From positions 1-61,813 of IMG/VR virus record IMGVR_UViG_3300009639_000001: a stretch of 61,813 bases of DNA; one strand, 5' to 3'. How positions within the stretch are numbered: position 1 is the stretch's first letter; every line of letters starts with the position of its first letter. A program made the translations under genes and the position numbers. Positions 1 to 41,937 of this stretch are shown piece by piece. The notes beneath the pieces were generated by a model. The model was not told the origin of the DNA and ran no database searches. It worked only from the letters and a program-made list of their open reading frames with translations. Source of the stretch: a virus.

Positions 1-123
1 GATAATTGATAAATTATCCAAAAAACGAGGGAAAGGAGGTAAAACAAAAGTTATCAATGAAGCTATTGAATTGTATTGCAATAATTTAACAAAAATTAAC
101 AAAATATAGTTATAATTGTCAGA
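1..123. repeat. Terminal overlap identical to 61691-61813 (circular closure or short terminal redundancy); contains the 3' end of the parG-like CDS (stop at 107-109)
   Basis: Base-by-base identity of the first 123 nt with the last 123 nt of the window. Confidence 0.95.
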
Positions 124-22965: not shown

Positions 22966-23541
22966 TTAAGGTTTATTTTGAGTTAGAATGGTTAACTCAG
23001 CGATAAAATTGGCATCGACCTTTCCAGTTGTCCACTCACAATTAGTTAATTGAACAGTCGTACTGCCATCAGAAGGAGTCGCACTTGCAGTAAAAGCACC
23101 AACAGATAAAGACGATCCAGCAACAGTAACAATGTAAACATTTCCGCCACAAGTAGGAGCATTAGCTGTCGAATCGCCAATAAATACAGTAGCTGAACCA
23201 ATTTGAAGAATATCAGCAGGAACTGCCGGCTCATATTGGCCGGAAGTACTATTTGCACCATAGGTATAAGTCATTACGTTCTTGACTTCAGCAACGGCAA
23301 TGCCCGCAAAATTAGCATAAATAGCCGAAGAGACACCAGCTCCAGAAGCACCCCATAGAGATACACTATTGTCAGTATTAAGAACTGCAGCAGCTCCAAA
23401 TGGGATTGCTGGCTGAGTTTCTACACCAGAACCATTGAGAATCGATTTTACAAAACGGGCGCCGATTTTGTTCATTGGATTGCGCGAGATTTTACCTGCG
23501 AATCCAAGATTTAAAGAAATACCAATCACTGTTCCCGGCAT
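22966..23541 (-). CDS. Head structural / decoration-like protein
   Basis: 191 aa between the scaffold/protease and major capsid genes. Confidence 0.4.
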   Translation of the reverse strand: MPGTVIGISLNLGFAGKISRNPMNKIGARFVKSILNGSGVETQPAIPFGAAAVLNTDNSVSLWGASGAGVSSAIYANFAGIAVAEVKNVMTYTYGANSTSGQYEPAVPADILQIGSATVFIGDSTANAPTCGGNVYIVTVAGSSLSVGAFTASATPSDGSTTVQLTNCEWTTGKVDANFIAELTILTQNKP

Positions 23542-25079
23542 TATTTATTCACTCCTTGTCTCATTGCTGCTCCGGCTTTATTCCAGGCAGCAACGGCTTT
23601 TTGTGCACGCTCTGACATTGTATCCTGTTGTACACTTGCATCAACTGCGCGATGGCGTTTATTGCTATTGATCTGATTTGCAATATCGCCGTATTTTGTT
23701 CTGTTGCCAACTTGACGAGCGTCTTGAACCGAAGCGACGAATTTTTTGGCAAGTTGATTCCGCAGTTTGGGATCTTCTACTGCAAGGATAGCTTTCTTCA
23801 TATCTTTGACGTGTTTTCTAAATGCAAAATCCGCTGCCTTTTTGTAAAGTTCAGCGGATTCGCCTTCATCATCATCATCGTCATCATCACGAGATTTTTT
23901 TCTACCTCTTTTATCTTTGGCTCCCTGTTCAGCATTCATATATTTTGTATTTTCTTGGCCGAAAGTATTTTCCACATCATCATCATCATCGTCATATCCT
24001 GCATGAGCTGGACCTGACATTTTGCTGCTTGGGCTTTCTTCAACATCTTCATATTTTCTTGCCTGTTGTTCAGGAATTTCTGTTTCATCATCATCCATAG
24101 GAGGACGTGATTTCATTTCATTTTCAAGACCAGCGAAATCATCTTCAGCTCCTTGGCCTTGTTGCTGTTCTTCACGGCTTTCAAGTTGTTCAATTCGTGA
24201 TAGAATTTGATTGATTTTATCGCACAAATCGCTCATTACTTCCGTACTTCCGCCAGCATCATCATCGTCATCATCATCTCTGACTCGACGATCATCTCTA
24301 ATCATGCGGTCATCATCTCGTGCCCGATAATCATCATCACTACCTGGAGTTTTAGAGAAAAGTGCTTTATTTTGTTCGTCTTCTCTCATTGCCTCCATTG
24401 CATGGGCGATTTCTTCAGGATCAGCATCTTGAGCAAAATGTTTTAAGCCCATTGCTGCTAATAGCCTTTTGGACATTTTCATCCGTTTCTTACCTCCTGT
24501 TTTCTCTTTAATCTGCATAATGGTATCTTCTGGAACATCATCGACAAATTTATCAGGTTTTTTATCCTGAATTGCTGCATGTGGACCGGCACGACCATTT
24601 TGGACAACTGCTATATGATTGCCTATAATATCCTTTTGCTCATATTTCCCGTCACCTAACGGAACCCATAAGCAATCATAACCACATGAAATCTCACGTT
24701 TCATTTTGTTTAATACTTCCTCTTTGAGCAGAAGATCCATAATATATAAATCACCCACTAAAAAATCACCGTCACGTCTGACATCTTGAATATGACCTTT
24801 TTCAGCCATAGAGACAGTATCAATCGTAAGATTTTCATGTGGATGAGTATTAGTTACAGGTTTTCCCTCAAATGAAGATACTGTTTTTTTATTAAAAACT
24901 TCTTCAGGACTACGGAAAACTTTACAAGGTCCTGATTCTTGAAATATCGCCGGAAGTTCATGGCCTTGATATTCCATCCAGCCGATTCTACCCACAGGTA
25001 CGTTTTTACAAATTATATATCCTTCGGGAGTTTCAATAATATTTTCTGATATTTTGTCGCCGTAGTAACTTCGAGCCAA
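23541..25079 (-). CDS. Prohead protease/scaffold fusion (DUF2213-like N-terminus) with extreme poly-Asp tracts
   Basis: TTG start after AGGAGGTGA; N-terminal PEGYIICKNVPVGRIGWMEY; several D6-D8 runs; helical C-terminus. Confidence 0.6.
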   Translation of the reverse strand: MARSYYGDKISENIIETPEGYIICKNVPVGRIGWMEYQGHELPAIFQESGPCKVFRSPEEVFNKKTVSSFEGKPVTNTHPHENLTIDTVSMAEKGHIQDVRRDGDFLVGDLYIMDLLLKEEVLNKMKREISCGYDCLWVPLGDGKYEQKDIIGNHIAVVQNGRAGPHAAIQDKKPDKFVDDVPEDTIMQIKEKTGGKKRMKMSKRLLAAMGLKHFAQDADPEEIAHAMEAMREDEQNKALFSKTPGSDDDYRARDDDRMIRDDRRVRDDDDDDDAGGSTEVMSDLCDKINQILSRIEQLESREEQQQGQGAEDDFAGLENEMKSRPPMDDDETEIPEQQARKYEDVEESPSSKMSGPAHAGYDDDDDDVENTFGQENTKYMNAEQGAKDKRGRKKSRDDDDDDDEGESAELYKKAADFAFRKHVKDMKKAILAVEDPKLRNQLAKKFVASVQDARQVGNRTKYGDIANQINSNKRHRAVDASVQQDTMSERAQKAVAAWNKAGAAMRQGVNK

Positions 25080-25124
25080 ATCATCACCTCCTTTCAGGCA
25101 TAAAAAATAGCGCATCTTTGCGCT

Positions 25125-25898
25125 TTAAGATGGCCAAATATATCCAGCTCTATAATTTTGTAAAATTTGTGCACTAGTAAGAGCGATATTATAAACACGA
25201 AAAGAATATACATTTGCTGCAATAGTACCATAGGAACTATCCCATGGAGATGCATTTATATAATATTGTTTATAACCACTCTGGGTTGCAGTGTAAGTAT
25301 CAGTATGATTCGCTGTAATTTGTGTGCCATTAATATAAAGATCACAAGTTGAATTATTATTAATTCGAATAATAAAATGGTTGATAGTGCTCCATGTTCC
25401 ACTAACAGTATATTCTGTGTGATATCCTACTCCAATAACAAATAATCCTACTGTAAATGAACTGGAAGTTAAAGTAAATCCAAATCCACCTTCTGTATAT
25501 TCAGATGTATTTGGTAAAAAGCCAGCAGCAGCAGAAGCATTTGAACATGAACACCAAATATCATAAGTTAATGGTGCAGTATAAGGCATAGTTCCGCCGG
25601 CTAATGTTAAATAATTAGTATTATTCGCTGCCATAGCAAGATAATAAGCAGCACCAGCAGATGCCCATCCACTTGATGTTGTATAACTAAATCCAGTAAG
25701 CGGGAAATTATTATTATTACCGCTTAAATCATACCAAGTTCCTTTATTAACTCCAATATTTGAATTTGGCGTATTTCCTGTAGCCCTTGCAGCTTCTAAA
25801 TCTAACACTAAGCCAGCTACGGAATGTTGGGAATGAGATCCTGCACCAACATAATTAAGAGTCTTCTTTTTTCTTACTCCATCAGGTAAAATCAACAT
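25125..25898 (-). CDS. LamG/concanavalin-like domain protein
   Basis: GTWYDLSGNNNNF...LYINGTQ pattern typical of Laminin_G_3-type jelly rolls. Confidence 0.45.
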   Translation of the reverse strand: MLILPDGVRKKKTLNYVGAGSHSQHSVAGLVLDLEAARATGNTPNSNIGVNKGTWYDLSGNNNNFPLTGFSYTTSSGWASAGAAYYLAMAANNTNYLTLAGGTMPYTAPLTYDIWCSCSNASAAAGFLPNTSEYTEGGFGFTLTSSSFTVGLFVIGVGYHTEYTVSGTWSTINHFIIRINNNSTCDLYINGTQITANHTDTYTATQSGYKQYYINASPWDSSYGTIAANVYSFRVYNIALTSAQILQNYRAGYIWPS

Positions 25899-25906
25899 AA
25901 TATCAC

Positions 25907-27916
25907 CTAATCCAACAAATAGCCTTTGACTATTATTTCAATAACTTCGCTAGCTATTGGCGTGTAAGCTGCTTGTACAATTATTGCAGGATATAAATCC
26001 CCACTAGCATCTAATACAGCATTTCGCACCATTTCATCTTTACGAAGCATATAAGCATTAGACGCTTGACTAACAATATTATTAATACTATCTAATGTTA
26101 CAGCGCAATTGCTTGCCAATACAGACAACGTAGGATTCCATGCTGTATAATCAGTAACGGTTTGAGATGAAGGATTATTAACATTCATCAAATGCACATT
26201 AAATCCGGGAACTGTTCCACTTCCATTGGTTGATATAAAAACAATACTATTGATTTGTACTCTACGACTGGCATATGATCCACCAAATGACAACGTAGGC
26301 AATGTAGTTGCAGCACTTGCATTTACAATCTCATTGGCAACATATGCAGGAGTACTTGCTGATCTTGTTATCGATACACTTACTTCAAATTCAGTAACAT
26401 TCATAGGAACTTGGTTCGTTGCAGTTACGGCAGCACTCGCAACATCAATATTAGCTGTAACTGTACCTGACACGGGTTGAGTTGTCGGGAAATTCAGAAC
26501 CTCTACAACCGGTGTTGCTGAAAAGTTAGTAACATAAACTGCATTTGATGTTCCTGGAGTAGATTGATCAATGTAAACCATTTGATCTAATGGAAAATTT
26601 AATACTGTTACAACTGGTGTAGATGGGAAATTGCTAACAGTAACTGTTCCACTTATCGATTGAGTCAATGGGAAATTCAAAACTTCAACAACTGGTGTCG
26701 CTGGAAAATTATTTACATATACGCCATTAGTTGTTCCCGGAGTGGATTGATCAATATCAATTACTCCAATAATTGCTGATCCAGCTGATAAATTAACAGT
26801 TCCTCCAATAGTTTGTGTTGATGGAAAATTATTTACATTTACTGAGCCTGTAATCCCAACAGATCCAGTAATACCCACGTTACCACTAATTGGTTGAGTT
26901 GTCGGAAAATTATTTACTGCCACTGTTCCAGATACATTTTGCGTAGTTGGAAAATTATCAACTGTTACTATCGGCGTTGATGGAAAATTTAATACTGTTA
27001 CAACTGGAGTTGCTGGAAAATTACTTATATCTACTGTTCCTGACACAGGTTGAGTTGCCGGGAAATTTGATACTGCTATTGTACCTGATACTGGTTGAGT
27101 AGCAGGAAAATTATTAACTGCTACTGTTCCGCTTACAGGTTGAGTATCAGGGAAATTAATAACTTCCACTACTGGAGTAGCTGAAAGATTAGTTACATAA
27201 ACAGCATTACTCGTTTGAGGCGTTGCTTGACTAATAGAAACAATACTTGGAATACCACCAGAAATAGAAACAGTTCCTGAAACCGGTTGGACTGCTGGAA
27301 AGTTTAAAACTTCAACTACCGGAGTAGCTGGAAAATTGTTCACCGATACTGTTTGAACGGAAGGGAAATTTTCGACGATTACTACAGGAGTTGCAGGAAA
27401 GTTACTAACAGCAACAGTCCCACTAACAGGTTGAGTAGTAGGGAAATTAATAACTTCAACAACAGGAGTCGCCGGGAAATTAGTCACATAAACAGCGTCC
27501 GTTGTACCTGGAGTAGCTTGACTAATGGCAACTGTACCACTAACGGCCTGCACAGTTGGGAAATTAAGCACTGTTACATTCGTACCTGCAGAAGAAGATG
27601 CAATATCTCCAGCTGGAGGAGGTGAAATATAGGTTTCCTGCGTAACATTACGCCAAGTTGTACTTAAATAAACTACTGTTGCTGTATTACTATAAACATC
27701 AATTTTTGTAATTATATCACCGGTATTATATTGTGGTTTTGTTGCTATGGCTAAATAATTTGTTGTTAATAGAGTATATGTTGTTATTATTATCGATCCA
27801 CCGGCAGTATTTGTTTCGATAGCTTCTAATACTGCAACCATATCTACAGGAGTACTGCCTGCATTTAACCATTCCCCAGTCAGTGGGGGGAAATTTTCAA
27901 TGTTATATTCGCCCAT
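25907..27916 (-). CDS. NFP-repeat protein, long form (about 30 NFP motifs)
   Basis: 11-13-aa units V.NFP(A/T/S)T(Q/P).V(SGT). N-terminus MGEYNIENFPPLTGEWLNA shared with 27930-28658. Confidence 0.6.
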   Translation of the reverse strand: MGEYNIENFPPLTGEWLNAGSTPVDMVAVLEAIETNTAGGSIIITTYTLLTTNYLAIATKPQYNTGDIITKIDVYSNTATVVYLSTTWRNVTQETYISPPPAGDIASSSAGTNVTVLNFPTVQAVSGTVAISQATPGTTDAVYVTNFPATPVVEVINFPTTQPVSGTVAVSNFPATPVVIVENFPSVQTVSVNNFPATPVVEVLNFPAVQPVSGTVSISGGIPSIVSISQATPQTSNAVYVTNLSATPVVEVINFPDTQPVSGTVAVNNFPATQPVSGTIAVSNFPATQPVSGTVDISNFPATPVVTVLNFPSTPIVTVDNFPTTQNVSGTVAVNNFPTTQPISGNVGITGSVGITGSVNVNNFPSTQTIGGTVNLSAGSAIIGVIDIDQSTPGTTNGVYVNNFPATPVVEVLNFPLTQSISGTVTVSNFPSTPVVTVLNFPLDQMVYIDQSTPGTSNAVYVTNFSATPVVEVLNFPTTQPVSGTVTANIDVASAAVTATNQVPMNVTEFEVSVSITRSASTPAYVANEIVNASAATTLPTLSFGGSYASRRVQINSIVFISTNGSGTVPGFNVHLMNVNNPSSQTVTDYTAWNPTLSVLASNCAVTLDSINNIVSQASNAYMLRKDEMVRNAVLDASGDLYPAIIVQAAYTPIASEVIEIIVKGYLLD

Positions 27917-27929
27917 TTATAACCCCCCT

Positions 27930-28658
27930 TTATTCCTCATACCATGTATAGCGAGCTGCAAAATATCCAGAAAAAACATTCGTCCCATTTACATCAGGCG
28001 TATAAAGAAATGCATAAGTAGTATTAAGTTTTAAAATCAATTCATAGGTTGGATCATAGGTAAGTCCCAAACTAGTACTTGCGCCCGAAGGGATTATAAT
28101 AGTTCCTGTAGGTTTACCGCCTATTGGGGTAGATGCAGATGGATAAAATAAATTACTTGATATATTACTGGAATTTAAATTCAAATTTACAGGATTTGCT
28201 GGACTTCCTAATGTTATAGATGCAGGCGATATCAATAATTCTGAAGTTATTGATGCAAGACTTATAAAAGTACCTGTATTAGTATATATATTGGTTTCAT
28301 TGAAATAAACTCTAGGTTTTAAATGAGTAATTTTATTACCTGTTAAAAATCCTACAACAGCAACATAGTTATAATATAAAAGATTACTAACAGTAACATT
28401 AAAAATATATTCATATACTGTTCCTTCATTAGTCTTAACAATATTCATATCTATAGTCGGTATAAATACATCAGTGCCATTGACTTTCAACAACAATTGA
28501 TTACTCTGACTATCTGTTATTGATACTGCATTGCTAATCCCTGGGGTTGATTGACTAATAACAAGATTAAACCCGGTTGTCATGTCAATCGGCGTACTTT
28601 CCGCATTTAACCATATCCCCGAAATCGGGGGGAAATTTTCAATATTGTATTCGCCCAT
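27930..28658 (-). CDS. NFP-family protein with a jelly-roll-like C-terminal domain
   Basis: Shared N-terminus MGEYNIENFPPISGIWLNA. C-terminal HLKPR.Y...IIIP.G.STS.G..Y...YEL.L..NT.Y.F.Y...W.YE shared with 28671-29654. Confidence 0.55.
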   Translation of the reverse strand: MGEYNIENFPPISGIWLNAESTPIDMTTGFNLVISQSTPGISNAVSITDSQSNQLLLKVNGTDVFIPTIDMNIVKTNEGTVYEYIFNVTVSNLLYYNYVAVVGFLTGNKITHLKPRVYFNETNIYTNTGTFISLASITSELLISPASITLGSPANPVNLNLNSSNISSNLFYPSASTPIGGKPTGTIIIPSGASTSLGLTYDPTYELILKLNTTYAFLYTPDVNGTNVFSGYFAARYTWYEE

Positions 28659-28670
28659 AAAAAAACCCCC

Positions 28671-29654
28671 TTACGAGGATGTTACTTCATACCAAGCGAT
28701 TCGGTACGCCAATGATCCGGTTATATCACTACTATTAAAATTTTGATAACTAAATACATATTGAGTATTTGGAGCTAATACTAATTCATAATCAGAAATA
28801 TATGAATTTCCTATGCTTGTCGAATTACCCGGAGGAATAATTATTGTACTTAATGTTGTTCCTCCTACAACTACAGTTGTTGAAGGATATACATTTGTTA
28901 AGGGAGTCGATGCAATAACTCTATTTAAATTATAAGGAGATGCAGCTGCTCCTAAAGTAACTACTGATGGATCTTCTACTAAAGTCCCTGCAATTGACAC
29001 AGCAACAGGCGTTGAAGAAAGTGTCGTCACTGCACTATAATAAATTCTAGGTTTTAAATGGGCTTGTTTTGATCCGGTAACAAATCCAGTTAATGCAATA
29101 TTTCCGCCAGGGGACACATTTGTTATAGTAATGTTATTACCATATTCAAACATCCATCCATCATGAATCATTATATGTGTGTCATCAATTCCAGGCGAAA
29201 GCACTTCAGGTCCATCGACTTCAAGTGTTAAATGTTGACCATTTGCATCAGTTAAAACAATACCATTTGTGGTTATAGGTGTTGTTTGACTAATGGATAT
29301 AGATTGAGTTATAGGGAAATTAAGAACTTCTACAGTAGGCGTAGAAGTAAAATCAGTCACATATACAGCATTGGTCGTTCCAGGTGTAGCTTGACTAATA
29401 GAAACTATTTGCGTTGCAGGAAAGTTAAGCACTTCTACGACAGGGGTTGCAGGGAAATTACTAACAGTTACTGAACCTGATATCGTTTGACTTGTTGGAA
29501 AATTTAAAACTTCGACAACAGGAGTTGAAGGTATATTCGTTACATATACTGCGTTAGTTACTGTTGGTGTTGCTTGGCTAATACTAACTGAACCAATATT
29601 ATTATTGGATGATAAAATCGTTACTGCTCCAACGTTAAAATCTGGATGACCCAT
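28671..29654 (-). CDS. NFP-repeat protein with a jelly-roll-like C-terminal domain
   Basis: Six NFP/ISQATP units, then a C-terminal domain paralogous to 27930-28658. Confidence 0.55.
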   Translation of the reverse strand: MGHPDFNVGAVTILSSNNNIGSVSISQATPTVTNAVYVTNIPSTPVVEVLNFPTSQTISGSVTVSNFPATPVVEVLNFPATQIVSISQATPGTTNAVYVTDFTSTPTVEVLNFPITQSISISQTTPITTNGIVLTDANGQHLTLEVDGPEVLSPGIDDTHIMIHDGWMFEYGNNITITNVSPGGNIALTGFVTGSKQAHLKPRIYYSAVTTLSSTPVAVSIAGTLVEDPSVVTLGAAASPYNLNRVIASTPLTNVYPSTTVVVGGTTLSTIIIPPGNSTSIGNSYISDYELVLAPNTQYVFSYQNFNSSDITGSLAYRIAWYEVTSS

Positions 29655-29666
29655 TTAATAACCCCC

Positions 29667-30068
29667 TTAAATAACGCATGGAGTAAATACGAAAGTTGCA
29701 TTACAAGTACCGGAAAGCGTTGGTACAAATTTAATCCATTTTGATCTAATTCCCGATATTTCAACAGAATTTGGTGTACTAGCTACAATCGGAAGAATAA
29801 TATCAGGATATAAAACTGGAGTTGATTGAGATATTGGACCTGTATACATGAGATGATATGGCTCTGTTCCAGTTTCAGAACTATAAACAGCAATTGAAAA
29901 TTGACCCGAACCACTATTAACAGTTACATCCAAACTTCCTCCAGTAAAACCAACCATTTCAACTGCAGTTGAATTTGCTTCTGTAACGCTCGCGGAAATG
30001 GCACCACCAAATAGTGTTATTGCTGGACCTTTTTGAATAGGAAAATTATTAACATTTAAATCAGCCAT
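29667..30068 (-). CDS. Small NFP-family member
   Basis: MADLNVNNFPIQKG N-terminus; first gene of the paralog block. Confidence 0.45.
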   Translation of the reverse strand: MADLNVNNFPIQKGPAITLFGGAISASVTEANSTAVEMVGFTGGSLDVTVNSGSGQFSIAVYSSETGTEPYHLMYTGPISQSTPVLYPDIILPIVASTPNSVEISGIRSKWIKFVPTLSGTCNATFVFTPCVI

Positions 30069-30102: not shown

Positions 30103-30291
30103 TTAACACCCGTATTTGCTACTAAGATCCTGCACCCTGCGCGTTAAATCACTTAAAGCATCTTTTGATCTGGATTTACCTGCTTTACTGTAAGCAATAG
30201 CGGCCGCTTGTTTGGGATCTTTACCTGACCTAATTTCTGTCGCTATATTTTCACCAATAACTTTCTGACTTGATCCCGATTTAAGTGGCAT
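30103..30291 (-). CDS. Small basic protein, unknown function
   Basis: 62-aa ORF starting 5 nt after the upstream stop. Confidence 0.4.
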
Positions 30292-30295
30292 ATTA

Positions 30296-30985
30296 TCACT
30301 CCTTCACCATTTTATGTATCGGTCTTGAGTCCAAATTCACAATCATTCGGTATCCTTTGACCTTAGCTTGCCTACACCAGAAAATATCCTCACCTTGTCG
30401 ATCTGGTCCATATCGAATACCATCTTCAATCGCTTTTCGAGGTATCATATAACAGGCACCTATTACACCGGCATTATACAATCCTTTTGGTGCATACCCT
30501 TGCGGATGAACAAATACATTCCCATATTCCACCATAAAATTACAGGCTGTTCGTCCGTCAATTTTTTGGTTTGGCAGGTTGCAAACTGCAGCCCCGACAA
30601 TCGTCTTTGAATCTGCATAAGGAAGTAACTCATTAATTATATTTGCATGTACAATAATATCCGAATCGATTGATAACAAATAATCCCCTTTAGTATCAAG
30701 AAACAATTCTAAAAATCGATTTCTGACATTGGCTAAATGAGCATATTCATTCTTGCCATATTCAGTTCGTTCGCTGCCAGGAGTTGTTGACGGCCAAGCA
30801 CTATATAAATTATATATAGATGCCGATTTATGATTGCGAAGTTGTATTAATGTGTCATCAGTTGAATCATTTTCATACATTAAGTATTCTTTGTTGTGAT
30901 AATCAATAGCTTCTAGAGCTTTTAAGTATTCCGGCAAAATCCAGCCTCTATTCTTGATTGGGCAACCGATTACAATTCTCGACAT
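30296..30985 (-). CDS. Glycosyltransferase (GT2-like nucleotide-diphospho-sugar transferase fold)
   Basis: YENDSTDDT and SIDSDI (DxD-like) motifs. Confidence 0.55.
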
Positions 30986-31658
30986 ATGCTATCTCCTGAT
31001 TTAACCATTGGTTGCATTTAACCCACATGTAATCTTGTGATTGCCCAATGGTAATATTATGATCCCGTATATCAGTTGTTAAATAAGCAAGTCCAAATCC
31101 ACCATATAACTGAGGATAAAATAAATCACCTGTCACAAAATCTTTTTCTACAAGATGAACGAAAGGATTGCTATTCCAATTTGCATGATCTATAGCTAAT
31201 CTTGTTTCTGGATGCCAAGAATCATGCATTATAAGAATAGTATCTTTTAATGGTTTATATGCAAGAAAATTGTTAATATCGCGTAAAACGGCGTAATAGC
31301 TATGATCTGCATCAATAAGAACAAAACTAATATCATTATCTTTTAATTCATTTATAAGCCAAGGTAATTTTTCAGCAGAATCACCTGTTATCCATTCAAC
31401 ATTGTTATAATTGTTTTTATTTGCAATATTATTGTGATTTATGTCAATGGAATAAACTTTATTAAAATTTTCTGCCAGATAACGAGTTGAACCACCACAA
31501 TAACTGCCGACTTCAATTGCAATACTATTTTTTCGTATTTTATCCAATAGATATAAAAAGCTCGTGCGTTCTGCACGAGACATTTGCCAACAAATACTGT
31601 CATCAAATATTCTTTTAATCAAACTAATTGCCTCCCTGTAGTATCCCTTCCCATCCAA
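30948..31658 (-). CDS. Class I SAM-dependent methyltransferase (CmcI/TylF-like, sugar O-methyltransferase candidate)
   Basis: AIEVGSYCGGST (motif I), VYSIDIN, LIDADHSY. Confidence 0.55.
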   Translation of the reverse strand: MDGKGYYREAISLIKRIFDDSICWQMSRAERTSFLYLLDKIRKNSIAIEVGSYCGGSTRYLAENFNKVYSIDINHNNIANKNNYNNVEWITGDSAEKLPWLINELKDNDISFVLIDADHSYYAVLRDINNFLAYKPLKDTILIMHDSWHPETRLAIDHANWNSNPFVHLVEKDFVTGDLFYPQLYGGFGLAYLTTDIRDHNITIGQSQDYMWVKCNQWLNQEIAYVENCNRLPNQE

Positions 31659-32266
31659 GATCCAATAAAATGATGTATTGCATATGTATCTTCTGTCATT
31701 ATTGGTTTAAATTGCGGATGATCAAATCCTCCAAAATATGTAATTGGAAATATAACAACTCCATCTTTCAAATATGTAAATCCGTAATTCTGTCGTTCTA
31801 TAAAAGGCTTTGATAATGCTGTAATAATACGAGTATTAGGTACAAGATAATCAAGATCAAACTTTGCAGTTTCATAATATTTAAATAAAAGTTTAATCCA
31901 AGGATGATCAGGTTCAGCTCCTATTACGGCGGAAAGAAATAATTCATCTGTTTCATGAGATGTAAAAGCTCTATATTGTAGAAATCTATCAAAAGATTTT
32001 ATTATTTGTACATCAGTATCTAGATAAATACCTCCATATTTTTCCAAACACCATAGCCTAATATAATCAGTAACATAAGCCCATTTTTTTGATCTATAAG
32101 CATCTTTTACATAATTACAACAATTTATGTCAAAATTATCTTCAGTCCATTCGATAATTTCATAATCTGGCATAAATTGATGCCAAGATGCAATACATTT
32201 TTTAAAAAATTCCGGTTTTTCACTTTTCCCCAGCCAACAATAATGTATTATTTTTGGAATTGACAT
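31619..32266 (-). CDS. Glycosyltransferase, GT32-like (Gly_transf_sug), paralog 2
   Basis: MSIPKIIHYCWLGK..., YLDTDV DxD motif; very similar to 33016-33678 along its whole length. Confidence 0.65.
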   Translation of the reverse strand: MSIPKIIHYCWLGKSEKPEFFKKCIASWHQFMPDYEIIEWTEDNFDINCCNYVKDAYRSKKWAYVTDYIRLWCLEKYGGIYLDTDVQIIKSFDRFLQYRAFTSHETDELFLSAVIGAEPDHPWIKLLFKYYETAKFDLDYLVPNTRIITALSKPFIERQNYGFTYLKDGVVIFPITYFGGFDHPQFKPIMTEDTYAIHHFIGSWMGRDTTGRQLV

Positions 32267-33005
32267 ATTCATATTCCCACTTTCTCCAAATAGTATGCAT
32301 TTGTGATTGTATCCCGCACCATCCTTTTTCTGCTAAATGTCCAGCATAATGGGCAATTTTTATTTGATCAACTGGTGGAATACCTGTGGACATTGATGAA
32401 TTATATATATTACTAGCAAGTTTTATATTACATGTTCTGTTCATTATGTCTTGATCGTAACAGCTTGTTGGTTGTGTATTTATTAACTTTATCCAAGTAT
32501 CCGATAAATTTTTCTCTCTAATCTGATCTAGATTCATTAATAAAACACCAGCATTTATGTAAAGATCCCCATGTTTTTTCCCTATGGATTGAAGCTGAAT
32601 ATCTAATATACCTATATCCCTAACTCCAACAATATCTATATTTTTAATATCTTGATGATAAAACTCAGAAAGATCACCATTGACAATAGTATCCGCATCC
32701 AAATATAAAATTCGATCTTCTGGAATGACCTTAGGTATTAATAACCTATATAAAGTATAACGAGTAAATCGGCCTATATTTGATGGTGTTCGTATTGTGT
32801 CATTATATAAGGCTTCTAGATCCAAAAAAATGACTTCAATACCATATTTAAAATAAAGGTCAGAGCAGAAATCCGAATTAGGTTCACCAGCTGCATCTGA
32901 TATTAAATAAATATTTGTCACATCTGAATTTGTTTTAATAAGTGCGAAGATTTCAATATAAATGTACTTTAGCCAATCAGGACTATAAATAATACAAATA
33001 TTCAT
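32220..33005 (-). CDS. Glycosyltransferase family 8-like
   Basis: RILYLDADTIV (DxD) and ...INAGVLLMNL..., typical of GT8 retaining transferases. Confidence 0.65.
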   Translation of the reverse strand: MNICIIYSPDWLKYIYIEIFALIKTNSDVTNIYLISDAAGEPNSDFCSDLYFKYGIEVIFLDLEALYNDTIRTPSNIGRFTRYTLYRLLIPKVIPEDRILYLDADTIVNGDLSEFYHQDIKNIDIVGVRDIGILDIQLQSIGKKHGDLYINAGVLLMNLDQIREKNLSDTWIKLINTQPTSCYDQDIMNRTCNIKLASNIYNSSMSTGIPPVDQIKIAHYAGHLAEKGWCGIQSQMHTIWRKWEYEYVNSKNNTLLLAGEK

Positions 33006-33015
33006 AATCTCTACC

Positions 33016-33678
33016 TCAAATTAATTTTATTTTTGATATATCTCTTTCATACAATGTTCCTGCAAGCCATGTACCAGCAAAGTGATGAATTGAATAGGTA
33101 TCTTCTGTTACAATTGGTTTAAACTGTTGATGATCATAGCCTGCAAAATATGTAATGGGGAATATTACAACGCCATCTTTTAAATATGTAAATCCATAGT
33201 TTTGTCTTTCAATAAACGGTCTTGAAAGAGCAGTTACTATACGAGTATTAGGAATTAATCGATATGGATCAAAAACGGCATTTTCATAATATCTCATGAT
33301 GTATTGAATCCAAGGATGTCCTGGTTCTGATCCCATAACTGCTGCTAATGTTAATTCATTTGTTTCTGAACCAGTGAAAGCTCGATATTGTAGAAACCTG
33401 TCTAATGGTTTGATTATTTGGACATCAGCATCAATATAAATTCCACCGCATTGTTCAATAACTTTCAATCTAGCAACATCGGTAACATACGCCCATTTCT
33501 TAGTTTCATATGCTTTTTTAACGTAAGGACAACAATTTACATCAAAATTTGTTTCGTTCCATTCAATTATTTCGAATTCTGGCATAAAATTACGCCAAGA
33601 TTCAATACATTTTAATATTAAATCTGGTTTTTTGTTCCCTCCGAACCAACAATAATGTAATTTTTTTGGAATTGACAT
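33016..33678 (-). CDS. Glycosyltransferase, GT32-like, paralog 1
   Basis: MSIPKKLHYCWFGG..., YIDADV DxD motif. Confidence 0.65.
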   Translation of the reverse strand: MSIPKKLHYCWFGGNKKPDLILKCIESWRNFMPEFEIIEWNETNFDVNCCPYVKKAYETKKWAYVTDVARLKVIEQCGGIYIDADVQIIKPLDRFLQYRAFTGSETNELTLAAVMGSEPGHPWIQYIMRYYENAVFDPYRLIPNTRIVTALSRPFIERQNYGFTYLKDGVVIFPITYFAGYDHQQFKPIVTEDTYSIHHFAGTWLAGTLYERDISKIKLI

Positions 33679-33767
33679 AATAACCTCTTATTCGTGTTTA
33701 TTTATATTGATCGCCCATATCAAACCAATAATAACTCCGCAAATCAATCCAATAACAAAATCACTGT

Positions 33768-34589
33768 TCATGATATTAATCTCTCAAAATCTTTTCTGTT
33801 AATCCATGAAATTTTTCCATTGCTATAGATCTTATGTGGCCATTTCACATAATCTGGATCGACTAAAGGCTCCGCATAACACCTGCAATTAAATATCTCA
33901 CCAGCCTGATAATGTCCATATTGATATTTTTTACGTGCCAACTGTTCAGGACTTGGGGGATCTGTCCATTTTATTAACACACCGTCCATATTTCGATGGG
34001 ATTGCCTGACACGTCCGTCCTCTGAAGTTCGCCAAACATACCATCTTAATCCTAGCTCATAACTTTGTGCCCGTGTTAGGGCTGTGCTGGCCTTAGACAC
34101 TTCAGTCCGAGCAATCAAGTTCGCCCTGGACTTAGTAATATTCGGCATCCATACTTTGAGATCGTCAACAATATCTTCGGCCCTACGACCTTTGAGAGCT
34201 TCTTGCTGAATATGATGCGTCATCTTTATCGAAATATCAATTGGAGTGCTGCGGATCAGTGAAGCGTTGTAATCGATCTGTGCTCGAATCAAATTCCCCA
34301 TTGGTCCCTGCATCTGCAACTTAAGTGCCTGGTAAATGTCCCGGCCCCTGGTGCTGATGCTGGCGGCCTGTCGCCAGTTACGTGCGTTGTCCACGCGAGT
34401 CGCTGTTATCATACGGCCTGCAATCCGCATTGATAGATTATAGAACAGCTCAGAATGAATAAACTCCTCGATCTGTCGTGCCGGTTCGAGAAAATCGAAC
34501 TGTCGGAATACACGGTCGAGGAGTTTTTTGATTTGCCGGGAATATTCAGATTCGATTCGGAGGATAGGATGCCAGTCGCGGTATTTCAT
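33768..34589 (-). CDS. Head morphogenesis protein (Mu F / SPP1 gp7-like)
   Basis: ARTEVSKA..., RVRQSHRNMDG..., NCRCY C-terminal motif characteristic of the family. Confidence 0.8.
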   Translation of the reverse strand: MKYRDWHPILRIESEYSRQIKKLLDRVFRQFDFLEPARQIEEFIHSELFYNLSMRIAGRMITATRVDNARNWRQAASISTRGRDIYQALKLQMQGPMGNLIRAQIDYNASLIRSTPIDISIKMTHHIQQEALKGRRAEDIVDDLKVWMPNITKSRANLIARTEVSKASTALTRAQSYELGLRWYVWRTSEDGRVRQSHRNMDGVLIKWTDPPSPEQLARKKYQYGHYQAGEIFNCRCYAEPLVDPDYVKWPHKIYSNGKISWINRKDFERLIS

Positions 34590-35478: not shown

Positions 35479-37281
35479 TTATTTGGCCTGTCTCATCTTC
35501 AGCAAGCCCGTTTCTATTCTTGGAGCCATCCCGCCACCTGCTGCCGGGAACTGTCGGTTCCACAATCCATCAGCAATCTTATTCAATCTATCGTCATACA
35601 TCGCAAGTCGCTTCGTCAATGAATTTCCTTCTGATGTTCTGGTTGGCAGTGAAAACTCTGTTGGCTCATTCAAACTTTGATCAATAGGTGGTTTTTCGCC
35701 TTCTCGCGCAATATTTCCTCTTTTTTTCATAAATCCTATATTGCCCGGATATTGATCCTGTTTTTGTCCTGATATTGAAAAATTTTCATGTTGCTCTTGG
35801 TATTGGTCCTGTTGTGGTTTCATCTGTTGCCGGAAGGTTGGCAGATGTTCACCTGGCATACCTCCAGCGCCGGGCATACCGCCCATCTCATCCACTTGCT
35901 GCAAATTATTATCTGCTGCTTCGATGTCCTCATCCGTGATGCTAGTAAACATGTTTGTGGTGAACGACAGTTCATGCAACTCTGACAAAGCCATCCGCTG
36001 AGTAATAACACCAGTTGTATAAGCAGCGAGGATGGATTGCGATTTTTTGCCGACAATATCCGCTTCGCGCTCTTCGGTTGGCGATTGGACTGGGTTGAAT
36101 TTGAAATCAAGATCATCCGGCACATAGCCGAATTCAGACATGAACATGATGGGTAATAACTTATTTAACTTAGGCCGAAGTACTGTTTCTTGTTGCAAGG
36201 CAATCATATCGTAATAATTTTGCAAATCGCTCTCGCCAGTTGAATTCATACCTGCGGGGGACCTACCAAATAATTTTGTAACTGGTATATCCGAAGCTCC
36301 AGCAATATCCAGCATGAAACTCTCATAGATACTATCCAGACCTGAAAAACTGTACTGTAATGCTGATACTTCTTCCTCTTTGCCAATCATCATCATACCG
36401 TTGTTGTTCCGCATCTGGTTCGCAGCTGACTTGGCATTGTAAAACTGCTGCTGAATCATAGGATCATTAAGGGCTAGGAGCTGTTCTAAGCCTTCTATTT
36501 TATTAACAAGAATATTTGCTTGGAAGACCAGCGAAGCTATATTCCATGAGGTATTATCACGTTTAACCAATTCATCGTATACGTGCTCCACTTCGCTAGC
36601 TCCCCAGTGCACCTCCGCAAGGTCTTCCCAAAAAGGCAGTTTTCTCCCAATACATCTCAAAATTCGACTATGATGTACACGGGTCAATAATCGTTCAGTG
36701 CCAATATCGCGTATTTCATACGTATCCGGCAAACCAAACTCTGGATCATTAATGTCTGCTACTAAAGTAATATCAGGAAAAACTCCCGACCATCTATCTA
36801 CGGGCATCAATCCTTTAAAAGCATGAGGCATTATTGTATCTAGATCAAGTGATTCATCTAATATTTCTTCATGACCTTCGATCATGATAACAACGGCAGC
36901 GCCTCCATATAAGCGACCCCATTGCAAACCTTCTAATAATTTTTCTTTAACGAGTGTTCTTTGAGTTAATTTATTGATCCGATCTATTGCTTGTGGTGCT
37001 AGTTCGGCGGTAACATCAATCCAATTTTTCACCATATCTTCGGGAATCATATTGATAATTTTCTTAATAATCCAGTGAGAACGATAGAGGCTGTTCATTA
37101 AATTGTAATCTCTACTGAGTCTGCTGAGCGGATAATCGGTCATTTGTAAAAGAGAAGGAGTATTAATTCCAGTTCTTGCAAGTGCATTTTGAAAGGCATC
37201 AAATACATTATATTGGCGTGTTTGTTGAGGTTCTTGTATTATTTTTTTATTATTGCGTTTGATCTTTCCCAATATTCTCAC
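35479..37281 (-). CDS. Portal protein (DUF1073-like)
   Basis: 600 aa in the TerL / portal / MuF order; HWGASEVEHVYDEL...; start uncertain (GTG 37281 or TTG 37272). Confidence 0.8.
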   Translation of the reverse strand: MRILGKIKRNNKKIIQEPQQTRQYNVFDAFQNALARTGINTPSLLQMTDYPLSRLSRDYNLMNSLYRSHWIIKKIINMIPEDMVKNWIDVTAELAPQAIDRINKLTQRTLVKEKLLEGLQWGRLYGGAAVVIMIEGHEEILDESLDLDTIMPHAFKGLMPVDRWSGVFPDITLVADINDPEFGLPDTYEIRDIGTERLLTRVHHSRILRCIGRKLPFWEDLAEVHWGASEVEHVYDELVKRDNTSWNIASLVFQANILVNKIEGLEQLLALNDPMIQQQFYNAKSAANQMRNNNGMMMIGKEEEVSALQYSFSGLDSIYESFMLDIAGASDIPVTKLFGRSPAGMNSTGESDLQNYYDMIALQQETVLRPKLNKLLPIMFMSEFGYVPDDLDFKFNPVQSPTEEREADIVGKKSQSILAAYTTGVITQRMALSELHELSFTTNMFTSITDEDIEAADNNLQQVDEMGGMPGAGGMPGEHLPTFRQQMKPQQDQYQEQHENFSISGQKQDQYPGNIGFMKKRGNIAREGEKPPIDQSLNEPTEFSLPTRTSEGNSLTKRLAMYDDRLNKIADGLWNRQFPAAGGGMAPRIETGLLKMRQAK

Positions 37282-41875: not shown

Positions 41876-41908
41876 AATATACCACCTCGGATATCTTGAA
41901 TTTATACA

Positions 41909-41937
41909 TTGACATTCAAACTTGAACATGGTATAAT
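41909..41937 (+). promoter_or_regulatory. Consensus SigA promoter for the plus-strand small-gene operon
   Basis: TTGACA (41909-41914), 17 nt, TATAAT (41932-41937); the spacer contains the palindrome ttcaaacttgaa. Confidence 0.65.

What the first reader, a model, noticed from the sequence alone, without database searches (positions are those of the whole stretch)
30296..33678. Five-gene glycosylation/methylation cassette embedded between head-morphogenesis genes
The cassette encodes two GT32-like paralogs (HYCW...DxD), a GT8-like enzyme (LYLDADTIV), a GT2-like enzyme (DSTDD / DSD) and a CmcI/TylF-like SAM methyltransferase.

The genes sit back to back on the structural-gene strand. They lie directly after the MuF-like gene and directly before the Ser/Thr/Asn-rich NFP-repeat and LamG-like proteins.

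Together with those genes, this is a 9.4-kb insertion (about 15 percent of the genome) between MuF and the scaffold. Phage-encoded virion glycosylation is established for some mycobacteriophages. A cassette of this size in a Firmicute phage-plasmid, next to candidate Thr/Ser-rich substrates, suggests a virion-surface glycan that may be O-methylated. Host surface modification (seroconversion) expressed from the late operon is the alternative.
Basis: partly seen in the sequence, partly recalled or inferred. Interest (0 to 1): 0.65.

Follow-up and report, generated by a model that had tools for sequence, protein, structure and literature searches.

The report
Sugar-adding gene cassette in phage head genes
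An uncultured phage of spore-forming bacteria carries four sugar-transferring enzymes and one methyltransferase among its head-assembly genes. They most likely coat virion proteins with a methylated glycan, which has so far been demonstrated only for mycobacteriophages, but nothing here has been tested biochemically.

Summary
Positions 30296-33678 (minus strand) hold five overlapping or abutting genes: GT32, GT8, GT32 (66% identical to the first), a Methyltransf_24 SAM methyltransferase, and a GT-A/GT2-like transferase. All five lack transmembrane segments. They sit between MuF and the prohead protease/scaffold.

The cassette is a conserved module. Two related uncultured phages (L014, L015) carry GT8-GT32-MT-GT2-like at the same place, followed by the same 62-73 aa and about 130 aa proteins. 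More distant relatives (L002, L003) go straight from MuF to the protease.

The GT2-like family recurs among head genes in several other phage and prophage lineages. Its cellular relatives lie in sporulation neighbourhoods.

The closest characterised analogue is mycobacteriophage Corndog gp35-38, an O-methyltransferase plus three GTs between portal and capsid protease, reported to glycosylate capsid and tail tube. Only the methyltransferase is detectably homologous.

Virion-protein glycosylation is the best explanation (about 0.55). The acceptor is unknown. The NFP-repeat proteins are not conserved partners of the cassette. Host wall modification remains a real rival.

I rate this a new variant of a known kind, of moderate interest.

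The parts
33016..33678 (-). GT32a: soluble GT-A glycosyltransferase (PF04488 Gly_transf_sug / PF05704 Caps_synth), DxD = D-A-D. This is an extra copy; relatives L014 and L015 have only one GT32.
32220..33005 (-). GT8-family (retaining) glycosyltransferase with motif LYLDADTIV. Nearest solved relatives by sequence are LgtC, WbbM and GlyE.
31619..32272 (-). GT32b: paralogue of GT32a (66% identical). It corresponds in position to the single GT32 of L014 and L015, to which both window copies are about equally similar (74-75% and 68-69% identity).
30948..31658 (-). Class I SAM methyltransferase (PF13578 Methyltransf_24), inferred to be a sugar O-methyltransferase. Weakly homologous to Corndog gp35. 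The start codon is uncertain: TTG at 31658, or ATG at 31583 as in the public gene call.
30296..30985 (-). GT2-like GT-A transferase with NDSTD, SIDSD (DxD) and GED motifs. It is the member shared by all cassettes of this kind examined. Best structural match is the collagen galactosyltransferase COLGALT1.
33688..33771 (-). 27-codon hydrophobic micro-ORF (MNSDFVIGLICGVIIGLIWAININKHE) that overlaps the MuF stop codon. L014, where MuF abuts GT8, and L015, which has different small ORFs there, show no counterpart at this position. Its significance is unknown.
30103..30291 (-). 62-aa protein (phrog_2423). A widespread small head-module protein that separates the GT insertion from the fibre insertion.
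29667..30068 (-). 133-aa beta-sandwich protein that follows the cassette in the window, L014 and L015. Its C-terminus has the invariant motif KxVPTxSGTxNxTxxFTP. It is a candidate capsid-associated decoration or anchor protein and a candidate acceptor.
28671..29654 (-). 327-aa protein with 5 NFP units and a C-terminal phrog_5335 domain, 26% Ser+Thr. A variable fibre-like protein.
27930..28658 (-). 242-aa protein. Its N-terminal 26 residues are 81% identical to those of the 669-aa protein (MGEYNIENFPP..), and its C-terminal domain is 38% identical to that of the 327-aa protein.
25907..27916 (-). 669-aa protein with 22 NFP units (consensus about NFPxTQPVSGTVxVS), 23% Ser+Thr. Fibre-like.
25125..25898 (-). 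257-aa LamG/ConA-like candidate. There is no Pfam hit; it matches the C-terminal part of PHROG 8510 'virion structural protein'. Laminin_G_3 proteins occupy the equivalent place in L015 and L010.
33768..34589 (-). MuF-like head morphogenesis protein (upstream flank).
23541..25115 (-). Prohead protease/scaffold (DUF2213 / Pa193_gp24), the downstream flank.

Best explanation
This is a late-expressed, entirely cytoplasmic glycosylation module that decorates one or more virion proteins with a short glycan carrying an O-methyl group.

Shown:
- Five soluble enzymes are packed into the head-morphogenesis operon.
- The core set (GT8, GT32, Methyltransf_24, GT2-like) has been kept at this position, and has diverged about as much as the head genes, in at least three phages.
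- The GT2-like family is embedded among head genes in several further phage lineages.

Inferred:
- The GT2-like enzyme is an inverting GT-A with a DxD motif and an E-D base. It is the only member shared by all these cassettes, and its closest structures are protein-glycosylating enzymes. I propose it starts the glycan on a protein side chain.
- The GT8 and the one or two GT32 enzymes (retaining families) extend it with alpha-linked hexoses.
- The methyltransferase O-methylates a sugar, possibly as a cap.
- Modification happens in the cytoplasm on assembling heads or on head-associated accessory proteins.

The most likely acceptors are the conserved 133-aa beta-sandwich protein, the major or minor capsid proteins, or the variable Ser/Thr-rich fibre proteins. 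Likely benefits are shielding of the particle, or altered surface hydrophilicity and adhesion.
For: 1. Family assignments and catalytic motifs hold.

2. No transmembrane segment occurs in any of the five enzymes (maximum 19-residue Kyte-Doolittle hydropathy 1.13 or lower). No flippase, polymerase or initiating lipid-carrier transferase lies in the block, or in any ORF examined with Pfam or PHROGs.

3. The genes are on the same strand as the head genes and abut or overlap one another. Each of the two gene starts read has a Shine-Dalgarno sequence. Promoter-like sites are not enriched, and no promoter or terminator site brackets the cassette.

4. Synteny is conserved: MuF, GT8, GT32, MT24, (extra MT), GT2-like, a 62-73 aa protein, then a protein of about 130 aa, in L014 and L015. 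Identities track those of the head genes: 55-75% for cassette genes against 62-83% for head genes. More distant relatives L002 and L003 lack the whole block.

5. The GT2-like family sits between TerL and portal/MuF in L016 (Collibacillus prophage), L017/18, L019, L022, L073 and L074 (Alicyclobacillus), and next to head genes in L020, L036 and L039. A Pfam tally of 82 neighbouring proteins in 8 viral loci shows other GTs and methyltransferases alongside terminase, MuF and S77 prohead protease.

6. Corndog has the same layout: portal gp34, O-methyltransferase gp35, gp36-38, capsid protease gp39. These genes are reported to modify capsid and tail tube (PMC11600133; PMC12363180). The window methyltransferase and gp35 share PF13578 and align at 24.6% identity over 138 aa (E 7e-5).

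7. The best structural neighbours of the GT2-like model are protein glycosyltransferases: COLGALT1 (E 7e-13, query-normalised TM-score 0.69-0.79) and LH3, with Mimivirus R699 also high in the list. The family profile hits COLGALT1 at E 2e-12.

8. Cellular relatives (31-44% identical) lie in sporulation neighbourhoods. Known spore-crust glycosylation likewise modifies a protein of the spore's proteinaceous crust (PMC13577073).
Against: - There is no direct evidence for any glycan or for any acceptor.
- The four GTs show no detectable homology to Corndog gp36-38.
- The MCP has no added Ser/Thr-rich C-terminal tail compared with relatives that lack the cassette.
- The GT-A fold also matches wall-teichoic-acid transferases (RmlT, TarS, TarP) and SpsA, with only moderately weaker scores. 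Fold similarity therefore does not fix the acceptor class.
- The closest GT32 relatives in the annotated phage collection are really in bacterial capsule loci.
- The cassette genes are markedly AT-richer than their flanks (29.5-37% GC against 41-46%), as expected for accessory cargo.
- Late expression is inferred from gene arrangement only.
Confidence: 0.55

Rival explanations
1. The enzymes modify a host cell-envelope glycopolymer (wall teichoic acid, cell-wall polysaccharide or S-layer glycan) on the cytoplasmic face of the membrane. This would block superinfection, or stop progeny phage from adsorbing to debris. The model is TarP/TarS/TarM or RmlT-type enzymes, which need no flippase of their own.
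For: - Soluble GT-A enzymes of this size do glycosylate teichoic acids in the cytoplasm. RmlT, TarS and TarP are among the Foldseek matches of the GT2-like model (E about 4e-9 to 4e-8, query-normalised TM-score about 0.6-0.67), and TarS appears in the profile search (E 0.01).
- GT32/Caps_synth and GT8 are typical polysaccharide-locus families. The nearest GT32 hit, at 42% identity, lies in a capsule locus.
- The low GC content of the cassette suggests imported cargo.
Against: - The position deep inside the head operon, between MuF and the protease, is conserved across phages that differ by 20-45% in protein sequence.
- No promoter or terminator site brackets the cassette.
- Four or five enzymes plus a methyltransferase is far more than known single-GT conversion modules.
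- The family is associated with head genes in many unrelated phages.
Confidence: 0.22
2. The enzymes glycosylate (and methylate) phage DNA to evade restriction, as in T-even phages and other phages with hypermodified DNA.
For: Phage GTs are classically DNA-modifying, and diverse GTs are reported to hypermodify DNA (cited within PMC12619734). The genome also carries several homing endonucleases and an intein. Those features show only a mobile-element-rich genome and say nothing specific about DNA modification.
Against: - No thymidylate-synthase-like hydroxymethylase or other base-modification gene was found among the replication-region ORFs scanned.
- The cassette lies in the head module, not the DNA-metabolism module.
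- GT8, GT32 and this GT2-like family are not, to my knowledge, the families described for DNA glycosylation. This was not checked here.
- Cellular relatives are sporulation-linked rather than nucleotide-linked.
Confidence: 0.05
3. The cassette builds a glycan on a non-virion target during infection. One possibility is altering the surface of the host forespore or spore when the phage is carried through sporulation. Another is making a free or lipid-linked oligosaccharide.
For: Chromosomal relatives of the GT2-like enzyme sit beside spore genes in two lineages. In Syntrophomonadaceae the neighbours are YhcN/YlaJ, a CgeB-like GT and SpoIIR. In Pelosinus they are GerA and SpoIVB. ParA and a ParB-like gene suggest a plasmid-like carrier state that could persist into spores.
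Against: The gene position predicts late lytic expression. There are no sporulation sigma-factor signals, no lipid-carrier enzymes and no transmembrane segments. The head-gene linkage is not explained by this reading.
Confidence: 0.05

Closest known systems
Mycobacteriophage Corndog (cluster O) gp35-gp38 virion glycosylation cassette, and functionally Che8 and Myrna (Freeman et al. 2023, as cited in PMC11600133 and PMC12363180)
   Same: - One Methyltransf_24/TylF-class O-methyltransferase plus three or more small soluble GTs in tandem.
- Co-oriented with, and inserted between, the portal (or portal/MuF) gene and the capsid maturation protease (compared).
- The methyltransferases share PF13578 and align at 24.6% identity.
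   Different: - The GTs are not detectably homologous. Corndog has an unassigned gp36, a weak GT2-like gp37 and a weak GT25 gp38. The window has GT8, two GT32 and a COLGALT1-like GT-A.
- The host here is inferred to be a Bacillota spore-former, not an actinobacterium.
- This phage is a myovirus with an XM1/Mu-type head.
- No Ser/Thr-rich C-terminal acceptor tail is visible on the MCP.
- Glycosylation is not demonstrated here.
Bacillus subtilis spore-crust glycosylation (CgeA Thr112, CgeB, CgeD, SpsA; PMC13577073)
   Same: - GTs are proposed to act on a protein of the spore's proteinaceous crust, with one GT starting the glycan on a small surface protein and others extending it.
- Cellular relatives of the window's GT2-like enzyme lie next to a CgeB-like GT (PF13524 plus DUF3880) and other spore genes.
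- SpsA is among the structural matches.
   Different: The target would be a capsid, not a spore. There is no CgeA or CgeB homologue in the window. The spore link rests on gene neighbourhood only.
Prophage-encoded wall-teichoic-acid glycosyltransferase TarP, and TarS and RmlT
   Same: A phage-borne (TarP), soluble, cytoplasmic GT-A enzyme. Moderate fold similarity.
   Different: TarP is a single gene expressed from a prophage as a conversion factor. Here five enzymes are embedded in the late head operon and are conserved with it.
Collagen hydroxylysine galactosyltransferase COLGALT1, the LH3 GT domain and Mimivirus R699
   Same: Best sequence-profile match (E 2e-12) and best fold matches (E about 1e-12 to 1e-9) for the GT2-like enzyme. 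COLGALT1 and LH3 glycosylate protein side chains.
   Different: Only 12-23% identity. The match covers one GT-A domain of multi-domain proteins. No collagen-like or hydroxylase gene was seen in any ORF examined.

Membership tests
CAZy GT8 (Pfam PF01501) | Profile match above the curated cut-off over the whole GT-A domain, with a DxD motif | tested here: met
   80.8 bits against a 24.3 cut-off, covering residues 3-229 of 261. LDAD motif present. LgtC, WbbM and GlyE are the nearest solved relatives.
CAZy GT32 (Pfam PF04488 Gly_transf_sug / PF05704 Caps_synth) | Profile match above the curated cut-off, with a DxD motif | tested here: met
   46.9 and 57.4 bits against a cut-off of 23. DAD and DTD motifs present. 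The mapping from this Pfam family to CAZy GT32 was not run through dbCAN.
GT2-like inverting GT-A | GT-A fold, DxD motif and an acidic catalytic base. Pfam PF00535 above its cut-off. | tested here: met
   PF00535 scores 24.6 against 23.3, which is marginal. In 24 homologues D107, D109 and G198-E199-D200 are invariant. The AlphaFold model has pLDDT 95 with a GT-A fold, and 354 PDB matches at E<=1e-3. The CAZy family itself (GT2, GT25 or GT62-like) is unresolved.
CmcI / TylF sugar O-methyltransferases | Match to PF04989 or PF05711, or to the NCBIfam rhamnosyl O-methyltransferase model, above the cut-off | tested here: not met
   PF04989 scores 20 bits against 23.2. There is no TylF hit. NF045824 scores 26.9 bits against 400. 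Only the broader PF13578 Methyltransf_24 is met (49.4 against 26.3).
Mycobacteriophage-type virion glycosylation cassette (Corndog gp35-38) | Tandem O-methyltransferase plus GTs inside the head gene block, co-oriented with it | tested here: met
   (Corndog layout) compared (window layout).
Mycobacteriophage-type virion glycosylation cassette (Corndog gp35-38) | Sequence homology of the enzymes | tested here: not met
   The GTs give no significant match (phmmer and blastp; hhalign probabilities 0.2-1.5%). Only the methyltransferase is weakly homologous (E 7e-5).
Mycobacteriophage-type virion glycosylation cassette (Corndog gp35-38) | O-glycans on the C-termini of capsid and tail-tube subunits | not testable with these tools
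   This needs mass spectrometry of virions. The MCP alignment shows no added Ser/Thr-rich C-terminal extension. The tail tube was not examined.
Phage seroconversion modules (GtrABC-type, or single wall-teichoic-acid GTs such as TarP) | Membrane flippase or GT components, or a stand-alone gene with its own promoter near the lysogeny genes | tested here: not met
   No transmembrane segments. The cassette lies between MuF and the protease, and no promoter or terminator site brackets it. Expression timing itself was not measurable.
Phage DNA glycosylation systems | A co-encoded hydroxymethyl-pyrimidine pathway (thymidylate-synthase-like hydroxymethylase) | tested here: not met
   No such Pfam hit among 16 ORFs scanned, taken mainly from the replication region. 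ORFs under 150 aa were not all scanned.

The most novel reading that the evidence does not exclude
The cassette may be one half of a modular 'glyco-decorated head appendage' system.

Its core GT2-like enzyme would have been recruited from the sporulation machinery of Bacillota, where relatives glycosylate the spore's protein shell. In the phage it would do the same to the capsid, another protein shell built in the cytoplasm.

The short N-terminal NFP-like tag would mark proteins for docking onto the head or for glycosylation. The tag reads ..NNFPPxSG.. or ..INNxxPxTG.. . It is shared by otherwise unrelated downstream fibre and beta-helix proteins, with related NFP motifs in the LamG-like protein (residue 64) and at the N-terminus of p133. 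In the NFP proteins the same unit is repeated up to 22 times.
Probability: 0.15. Interest if true: 0.75.

Novelty: new variant of a known kind. Interest (0 to 1): 0.55.

Why it matters
Virus-encoded glycosylation of phage particles has been demonstrated only in a few mycobacteriophages, where it reduces antibody recognition.

A non-orthologous cassette conserved in the head operon of phages of anaerobic or spore-forming Bacillota would show that particle glycosylation is a convergent, widespread strategy. It would provide a compact five-enzyme cytoplasmic protein-glycosylation toolkit. It would also tie phage capsid decoration to spore-surface glycosylation in evolutionary terms.

Practically, it would flag a class of metagenomic phages whose surface chemistry cannot be predicted from their structural proteins alone. 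That includes immunogenicity, adhesion and stability.

Tried and rejected
- **Nucleotide search.** Megablast of the cassette against the phage and plasmid collections found nothing.
- **GT8 scan of viral contigs.** Scanning IMG/VR with single-sequence GT8 peptide patterns found no relative.
- **Nearest 'phage' hits for GT32 and GT8.** These are unannotated faecal contigs. The longest, MT835535.1, is a bacterial capsule locus with a Wzx-like flippase, GT2s and acyltransferases, so it says nothing about phage function.
- **NFP repeat proteins as the conserved substrate.** Rejected. Cassette-bearing relatives L014 and L015 have no NFP arrays. NFP homologues elsewhere lie in head, neck or tail-fibre positions with no GT called nearby. 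One exception is worth noting: L009 has rhamnose-pathway genes and a methyltransferase around its NFP gene.
- **MCP C-terminal acceptor tail.** Not present.
- **Homology of the GT2-like family to Corndog gp36-38.** Not detected.
- **p133 function.** The family has only five members in the database. The model has medium confidence (pLDDT 71), and fold matches are weak (TM-score about 0.5-0.6) to small capsid-associated proteins of Agrobacterium phages 7-7-1 and Milano and of Carin1. This is suggestive only.
- **Conserved NxT in p133.** It is a formal N-glycosylation sequon, but no GT41/NGT-type enzyme is present. I do not build on it.
- **Independent promoter or terminator.** No site brackets the cassette, and promoter-like sites are not enriched.
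- **Not used.** The search of protein representatives was not run, because its output could not be fed into the context or structure tools.

Full report
**What is there**

The window is a complete circular genome of 61,690 bp. It has an exact 123-bp terminal overlap, and the same contig is public as GCA_017886315.1 JAFMOA010001839.1. It is a myovirus, and nearly all genes are on the minus strand.

Reading 5' to 3' on that strand, the morphogenesis region runs as follows:

- TerL
- a GIY-YIG homing endonuclease
- portal (PF06381)
- three small ORFs
- MuF (PF04233)
- the five-gene cassette
- a 62-aa protein (phrog_2423)
- a 133-aa protein
- a 327-aa NFP-repeat protein
- a 242-aa protein
- a 669-aa NFP-repeat protein
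- a 257-aa LamG-like candidate
- prohead protease/scaffold (DUF2213)
- an XM1 gp53-like minor capsid protein
- the major capsid protein (MCP, PF09950)
- an HNH endonuclease, connector genes, sheath and so on

The tail module further downstream has its own fibre genes. The NFP proteins are therefore additional to the ordinary tail fibres.

**Check of the observation**

The five ORFs lie at exactly the reported coordinates. Pfam scores are:

| Gene | Pfam family | Score (bits) | Cut-off (bits) |
|---|---|---|---|
| GT32a | PF04488 | 46.9 | 23 |
| GT32b | PF04488 | 57.4 | 23 |
| GT8 | PF01501 | 80.8 | 24.3 |
| Methyltransferase | PF13578 Methyltransf_24 | 49.4 | 26.3 |
| GT2-like | PF00535 | 24.6 | 23.3 |

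The last assignment is marginal, so I tested it further:

- A database search found 25 homologues.
- Their alignment has an invariant DxD (D107, D109), an invariant G-E-D (198-200) and H224.
- The family profile hits the GT-A domain of human COLGALT1 at E 2e-12.
- An AlphaFold model built on that alignment has mean pLDDT 95. Its best PDB fold matches are COLGALT1 (E 7e-13), the LH3 GT domain, Mimivirus R699 and Mnn9, followed by RmlT, TarS, TarP, SpsA and ppGalNAc-T.

The two GT32 genes are 66% identical paralogues. The methyltransferase is 'CmcI/TylF-like' only loosely. PF04989 is below its cut-off, there is no TylF hit, and the NCBIfam rhamnosyl O-methyltransferase model scores 27 bits against a cut-off of 400.

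None of the five proteins has a hydrophobic stretch compatible with a membrane helix. The genes abut or overlap, and the two gene starts read have Shine-Dalgarno sequences. Promoter-like sites are not above the shuffled expectation (63 found against 67.9 expected). Terminator-like sites are about twice expectation (17 against 8.3), and one lies inside the methyltransferase gene at 31579-31561, but none brackets the cassette.

**Is it an insertion?**

Yes. Two IMG/VR phages with 46-47% identical MuF (L002, L003) run MuF, a short gap, protease/scaffold, minor capsid, MCP.

In the window, the stretch between the MuF stop and the protease start is about 8.65 kb (14% of the genome), not 9.4 kb. The 62-aa gene in the middle is a widespread small head-module gene, found in 399 phage records, mostly PB1-like Pseudomonas phages. 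The block is therefore better described as two insertions:

- the 3.4-kb enzyme cassette between MuF and p62
- a roughly 5-kb appendage module between p62 and the protease

The enzyme genes are conspicuously AT-rich: 29.5-32% GC, with 37% for the GT2-like gene. That compares with 41-46% for TerL, portal, MuF and MCP, and 36.6% for the genome.

**The cassette is a conserved module, not a one-off**

Looking up homologues of the GT2-like protein returned two uncultured phages with the same arrangement.

- **L014** (42.9 kb): MuF, GT8, GT32, Methyltransf_24, an extra class I methyltransferase, GT2-like, a 69-aa protein, a 138-aa protein, a 125-aa protein, then a 352-aa beta-helix protein.
- **L015** (59 kb): MuF, two small ORFs, GT8, GT32, Methyltransf_24, GT2-like, a 73-aa protein, a 129-aa protein, four variable proteins including a 456-aa Laminin_G_3 protein, a 363-aa beta-helix-like protein, then protease/scaffold, cement protein and MCP.

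Amino-acid identities to the window:

| Locus | Head genes | Cassette and p133 |
|---|---|---|
| L014 | 75-78% | GT8 64, GT32 74-75, MT 60, GT2-like 62, p133 79 |
| L015 | portal 68, MuF 62, MCP 83 | GT8 57, GT32 68-69, MT 61, GT2-like 55, p133 50 |

So the enzymes have been carried with the head module over substantial divergence. Individual genes come and go: a second GT32 here, a second methyltransferase in L014.

What follows the roughly 130-aa protein differs in each phage. These variable proteins share a short N-terminal motif:

- MGEYNI(E/N)NFPPxxG in the window's 669-aa and 242-aa proteins (81% identical over 26 residues) and in L014's 125-aa protein
- MSGxxGINNxxPxTGR in two L015 proteins

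The motif resembles a single NFP repeat unit.

**Wider distribution**

A profile scan of IMG/VR gave 53 loci, and a scan of species-representative genomes gave 46. Mapping with phmmer shows three patterns.

- **GT8 with GT32, with or without MT24, plus GT2-like** in L019 and L023. L020 has GT32, MT24 and GT2-like but no detected GT8.
- **GT2-like close to head genes.** It lies between TerL and a portal-MuF fusion in L016 (a Collibacillus ludicampi prophage, where it is preceded by a GT4), L017/18, L019, L022, L073 and L074 (Alicyclobacillus tolerans). It lies close to head genes in L020, L036 and L039.
- **A Pfam tally of 82 neighbouring proteins in eight viral loci**: 13 GT2, 3 GT32, 2 GT8, 2 GT4, several methyltransferases, and terminase, MuF and S77 prohead protease.

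About 35 Syntrophomonadaceae genome bins and a Pelosinus bin carry a GT4 plus GT2-like pair (31-44% identical) with no phage genes detected by that mapping, and none among the Pfam-scanned neighbours of the two examples. Both examples are in sporulation neighbourhoods:

- **Syntrophomonas (L099):** YhcN/YlaJ spore lipoprotein, KsgA, a CgeB-like GT (PF13524 plus DUF3880), GT4, GT2-like, patatin, SpoIIR, IspE.
- **Pelosinus (L116):** GerA, spore permease, SpoIVB, a methyltransferase, GT4, GT2-like, RecN, ArgR.

This points to spore-forming Bacillota as hosts, and to spore-surface glycosylation as the likely cellular role of the family. The second point is inferred from neighbourhood only.

**Comparison with what is known**

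Mycobacteriophage Corndog has portal gp34, gp35, gp36, gp37, gp38, capsid maturation protease gp39 and MCP gp41. By Pfam:

- gp35 is a TylF/Methyltransf_24 O-methyltransferase
- gp36 has no Pfam match
- gp37 is weakly GT2-like
- gp38 is weakly GT25

[quoted passage not shown] 2023, which I could not open).

The window's cassette has the same composition and the same position in the genome. However, only the methyltransferases are detectably related (24.6% identity over 138 aa, E 7e-5). The GTs are not. It works like the Corndog cassette on present evidence, but it is not a member of the same gene family set.

A second relevant precedent is the B. subtilis spore crust. There the small protein CgeA is glycosylated at Thr112, apparently by CgeB, and other GTs are proposed to extend the chain (PMC13577073).

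**Who is the acceptor?**

This is unresolved.

- **The MCP** of cassette-bearing phages has no extra Ser/Thr-rich C-terminal tail compared with cassette-free relatives.
- **p133** is, apart from the widespread p62, the only non-enzyme gene that accompanies the cassette in all three MuF-type phages.
  - Its family is tiny (5 database members).
  - It has an invariant C-terminal KxVPTxSGTxNxTxxFTP motif.
  - One member sits directly upstream of a protease/scaffold gene on a short contig.
  - A medium-confidence model (pLDDT 71) is a beta-sandwich. It has weak similarity (TM-score 0.5-0.6) to small capsid-associated proteins of Agrobacterium phages 7-7-1 and Milano and of phage Carin1.
- **The NFP proteins** are 22-26% Ser+Thr, against 8-12% for the enzymes and core head proteins. 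They carry 22 and 5 NFP units.
  - NFP arrays are absent from L014 and L015.
  - NFP-repeat homologues elsewhere sit at head, neck or fibre positions, with no GT called nearby in L006, L010, L011 and L012.
  - Two recurrences are worth recording. An NFP protein is followed by a Laminin_G_3 protein in L010. An NFP protein lies between portal and MuF in L009, flanked by a sugar epimerase/dehydratase, RmlC-like and RmlD-like genes and a methyltransferase.

**Most likely mechanism**

This is inferred and marked as such.

1. During late infection the five soluble enzymes act in the cytoplasm on an assembling head or a head-associated protein.
2. The GT2-like enzyme starts the glycan on a protein side chain. 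It is an inverting GT-A, it is the universal member of these cassettes, and its nearest structures are protein O-glycosyltransferases.
3. The GT8 and GT32 enzymes, both retaining families, add alpha-linked hexoses.
4. The methyltransferase O-methylates a sugar.

I put this at about 0.55. The main rival is modification of a host wall glycopolymer by TarP/TarS/RmlT-like cytoplasmic action (about 0.22). Fold similarity cannot separate the two. The conserved head-operon position, the number of enzymes and the absence of a bracketing promoter or terminator argue against the rival. DNA glycosylation (about 0.05) lacks any hydroxymethylase among the ORFs scanned. A spore-directed or other non-virion role is also put at about 0.05.

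**Novelty and verdict**

It is strong on 'this is a conserved, head-linked glycosylation cassette analogous to the mycobacteriophage one'. It is weak on 'the adjacent NFP and LamG proteins are the substrates'.

No close relative exists in the annotated phage or plasmid collections. My literature searches found virion glycosylation reports for tailed phages only in actinobacteriophages.

I rate it a new variant of a known kind: non-orthologous enzymes, a different host phylum, and a possible evolutionary link to spore-coat glycosylation. Interest is about 0.55. The idea is not new, and nothing is demonstrated. But the module is conserved, compact and directly testable by co-expression and mass spectrometry.

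Noticed in passing
window 1-123 and 61691-61813: There is an exact 123-bp terminal overlap, so the window is a circularly closed assembly of 61,690 bp. This is the same length as the public contig JAFMOA010001839.1.
   Followed up: partly
window 52012-54213 (-): A SNF2/ResIII-type helicase is interrupted by an intein (PF14890 Intein_splicing, with a HINT domain at residues about 108-379).
   Followed up: no
window 37250-38059 (-), 11778-12602 (+), 20930-21757 (-): Three free-standing homing endonucleases are lodged in the structural region. Two are GIY-YIG/NUMOD3 genes, one between TerL and portal and one on the opposite strand in the tail module. The third is an HNH gene just after the MCP.
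   Followed up: no
window 60563-61381 (+), 43167-44156 (-): ParA (AAA_31/CbiA, E 1e-51) and a weak ParB_N-like protein are present. No integrase was seen among the ORFs scanned. This is compatible with a plasmid-like prophage state but was not tested.
   Followed up: partly
window 33688-33771 (-): A 27-codon strongly hydrophobic micro-ORF overlaps the MuF stop codon (ATGA), just upstream of GT32a. L014 and L015 show no counterpart at this position.
   Followed up: partly
window 39920-41929 (-): TerL is 669 aa, but homologues in annotated phages align only to residues about 37-496. The last 170 residues or so are an unexplained C-terminal extension, shared with L014 (646 aa).
   Followed up: no
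L009 6194-17703 (Logan SRR21686415): An unrelated phage has an NFP-repeat protein between a Mu-type portal and MuF. It is flanked by an epimerase/dehydratase, RmlC-like and RmlD-like genes, a methyltransferase and a K1-lyase_C protein. This is a second case of sugar metabolism genes lodged with NFP proteins among head genes.
   Followed up: partly
L099 7463-10678 and L116 7527-10690: A GT4 plus GT2-like pair (with a CgeB-like GT or a methyltransferase) is conserved in about 35 Syntrophomonadaceae genome bins and in a Pelosinus bin, next to spore genes (YhcN/YlaJ and SpoIIR; GerA and SpoIVB). This is probably an undescribed spore-surface glycosylation locus.
   Followed up: partly
window 29667-30068 (-) and alignment A4: The 133-aa protein family has an invariant N-x-T near the C-terminus (SGTxNxTxxFTP). 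This is a formal N-glycosylation sequon, although no NGT-type enzyme is encoded.
   Followed up: partly
L007 (MT835535.1) and L008 (MT836586.1): These GenBank records are labelled 'Bacteriophage sp.'. L007 has the gene content of a bacterial capsule or polysaccharide locus (Wzx-like flippase, several GT2s, acyltransferases), so it is probably a misclassified bacterial fragment. L008 was only listed by ORF length and probably is too.
   Followed up: partly
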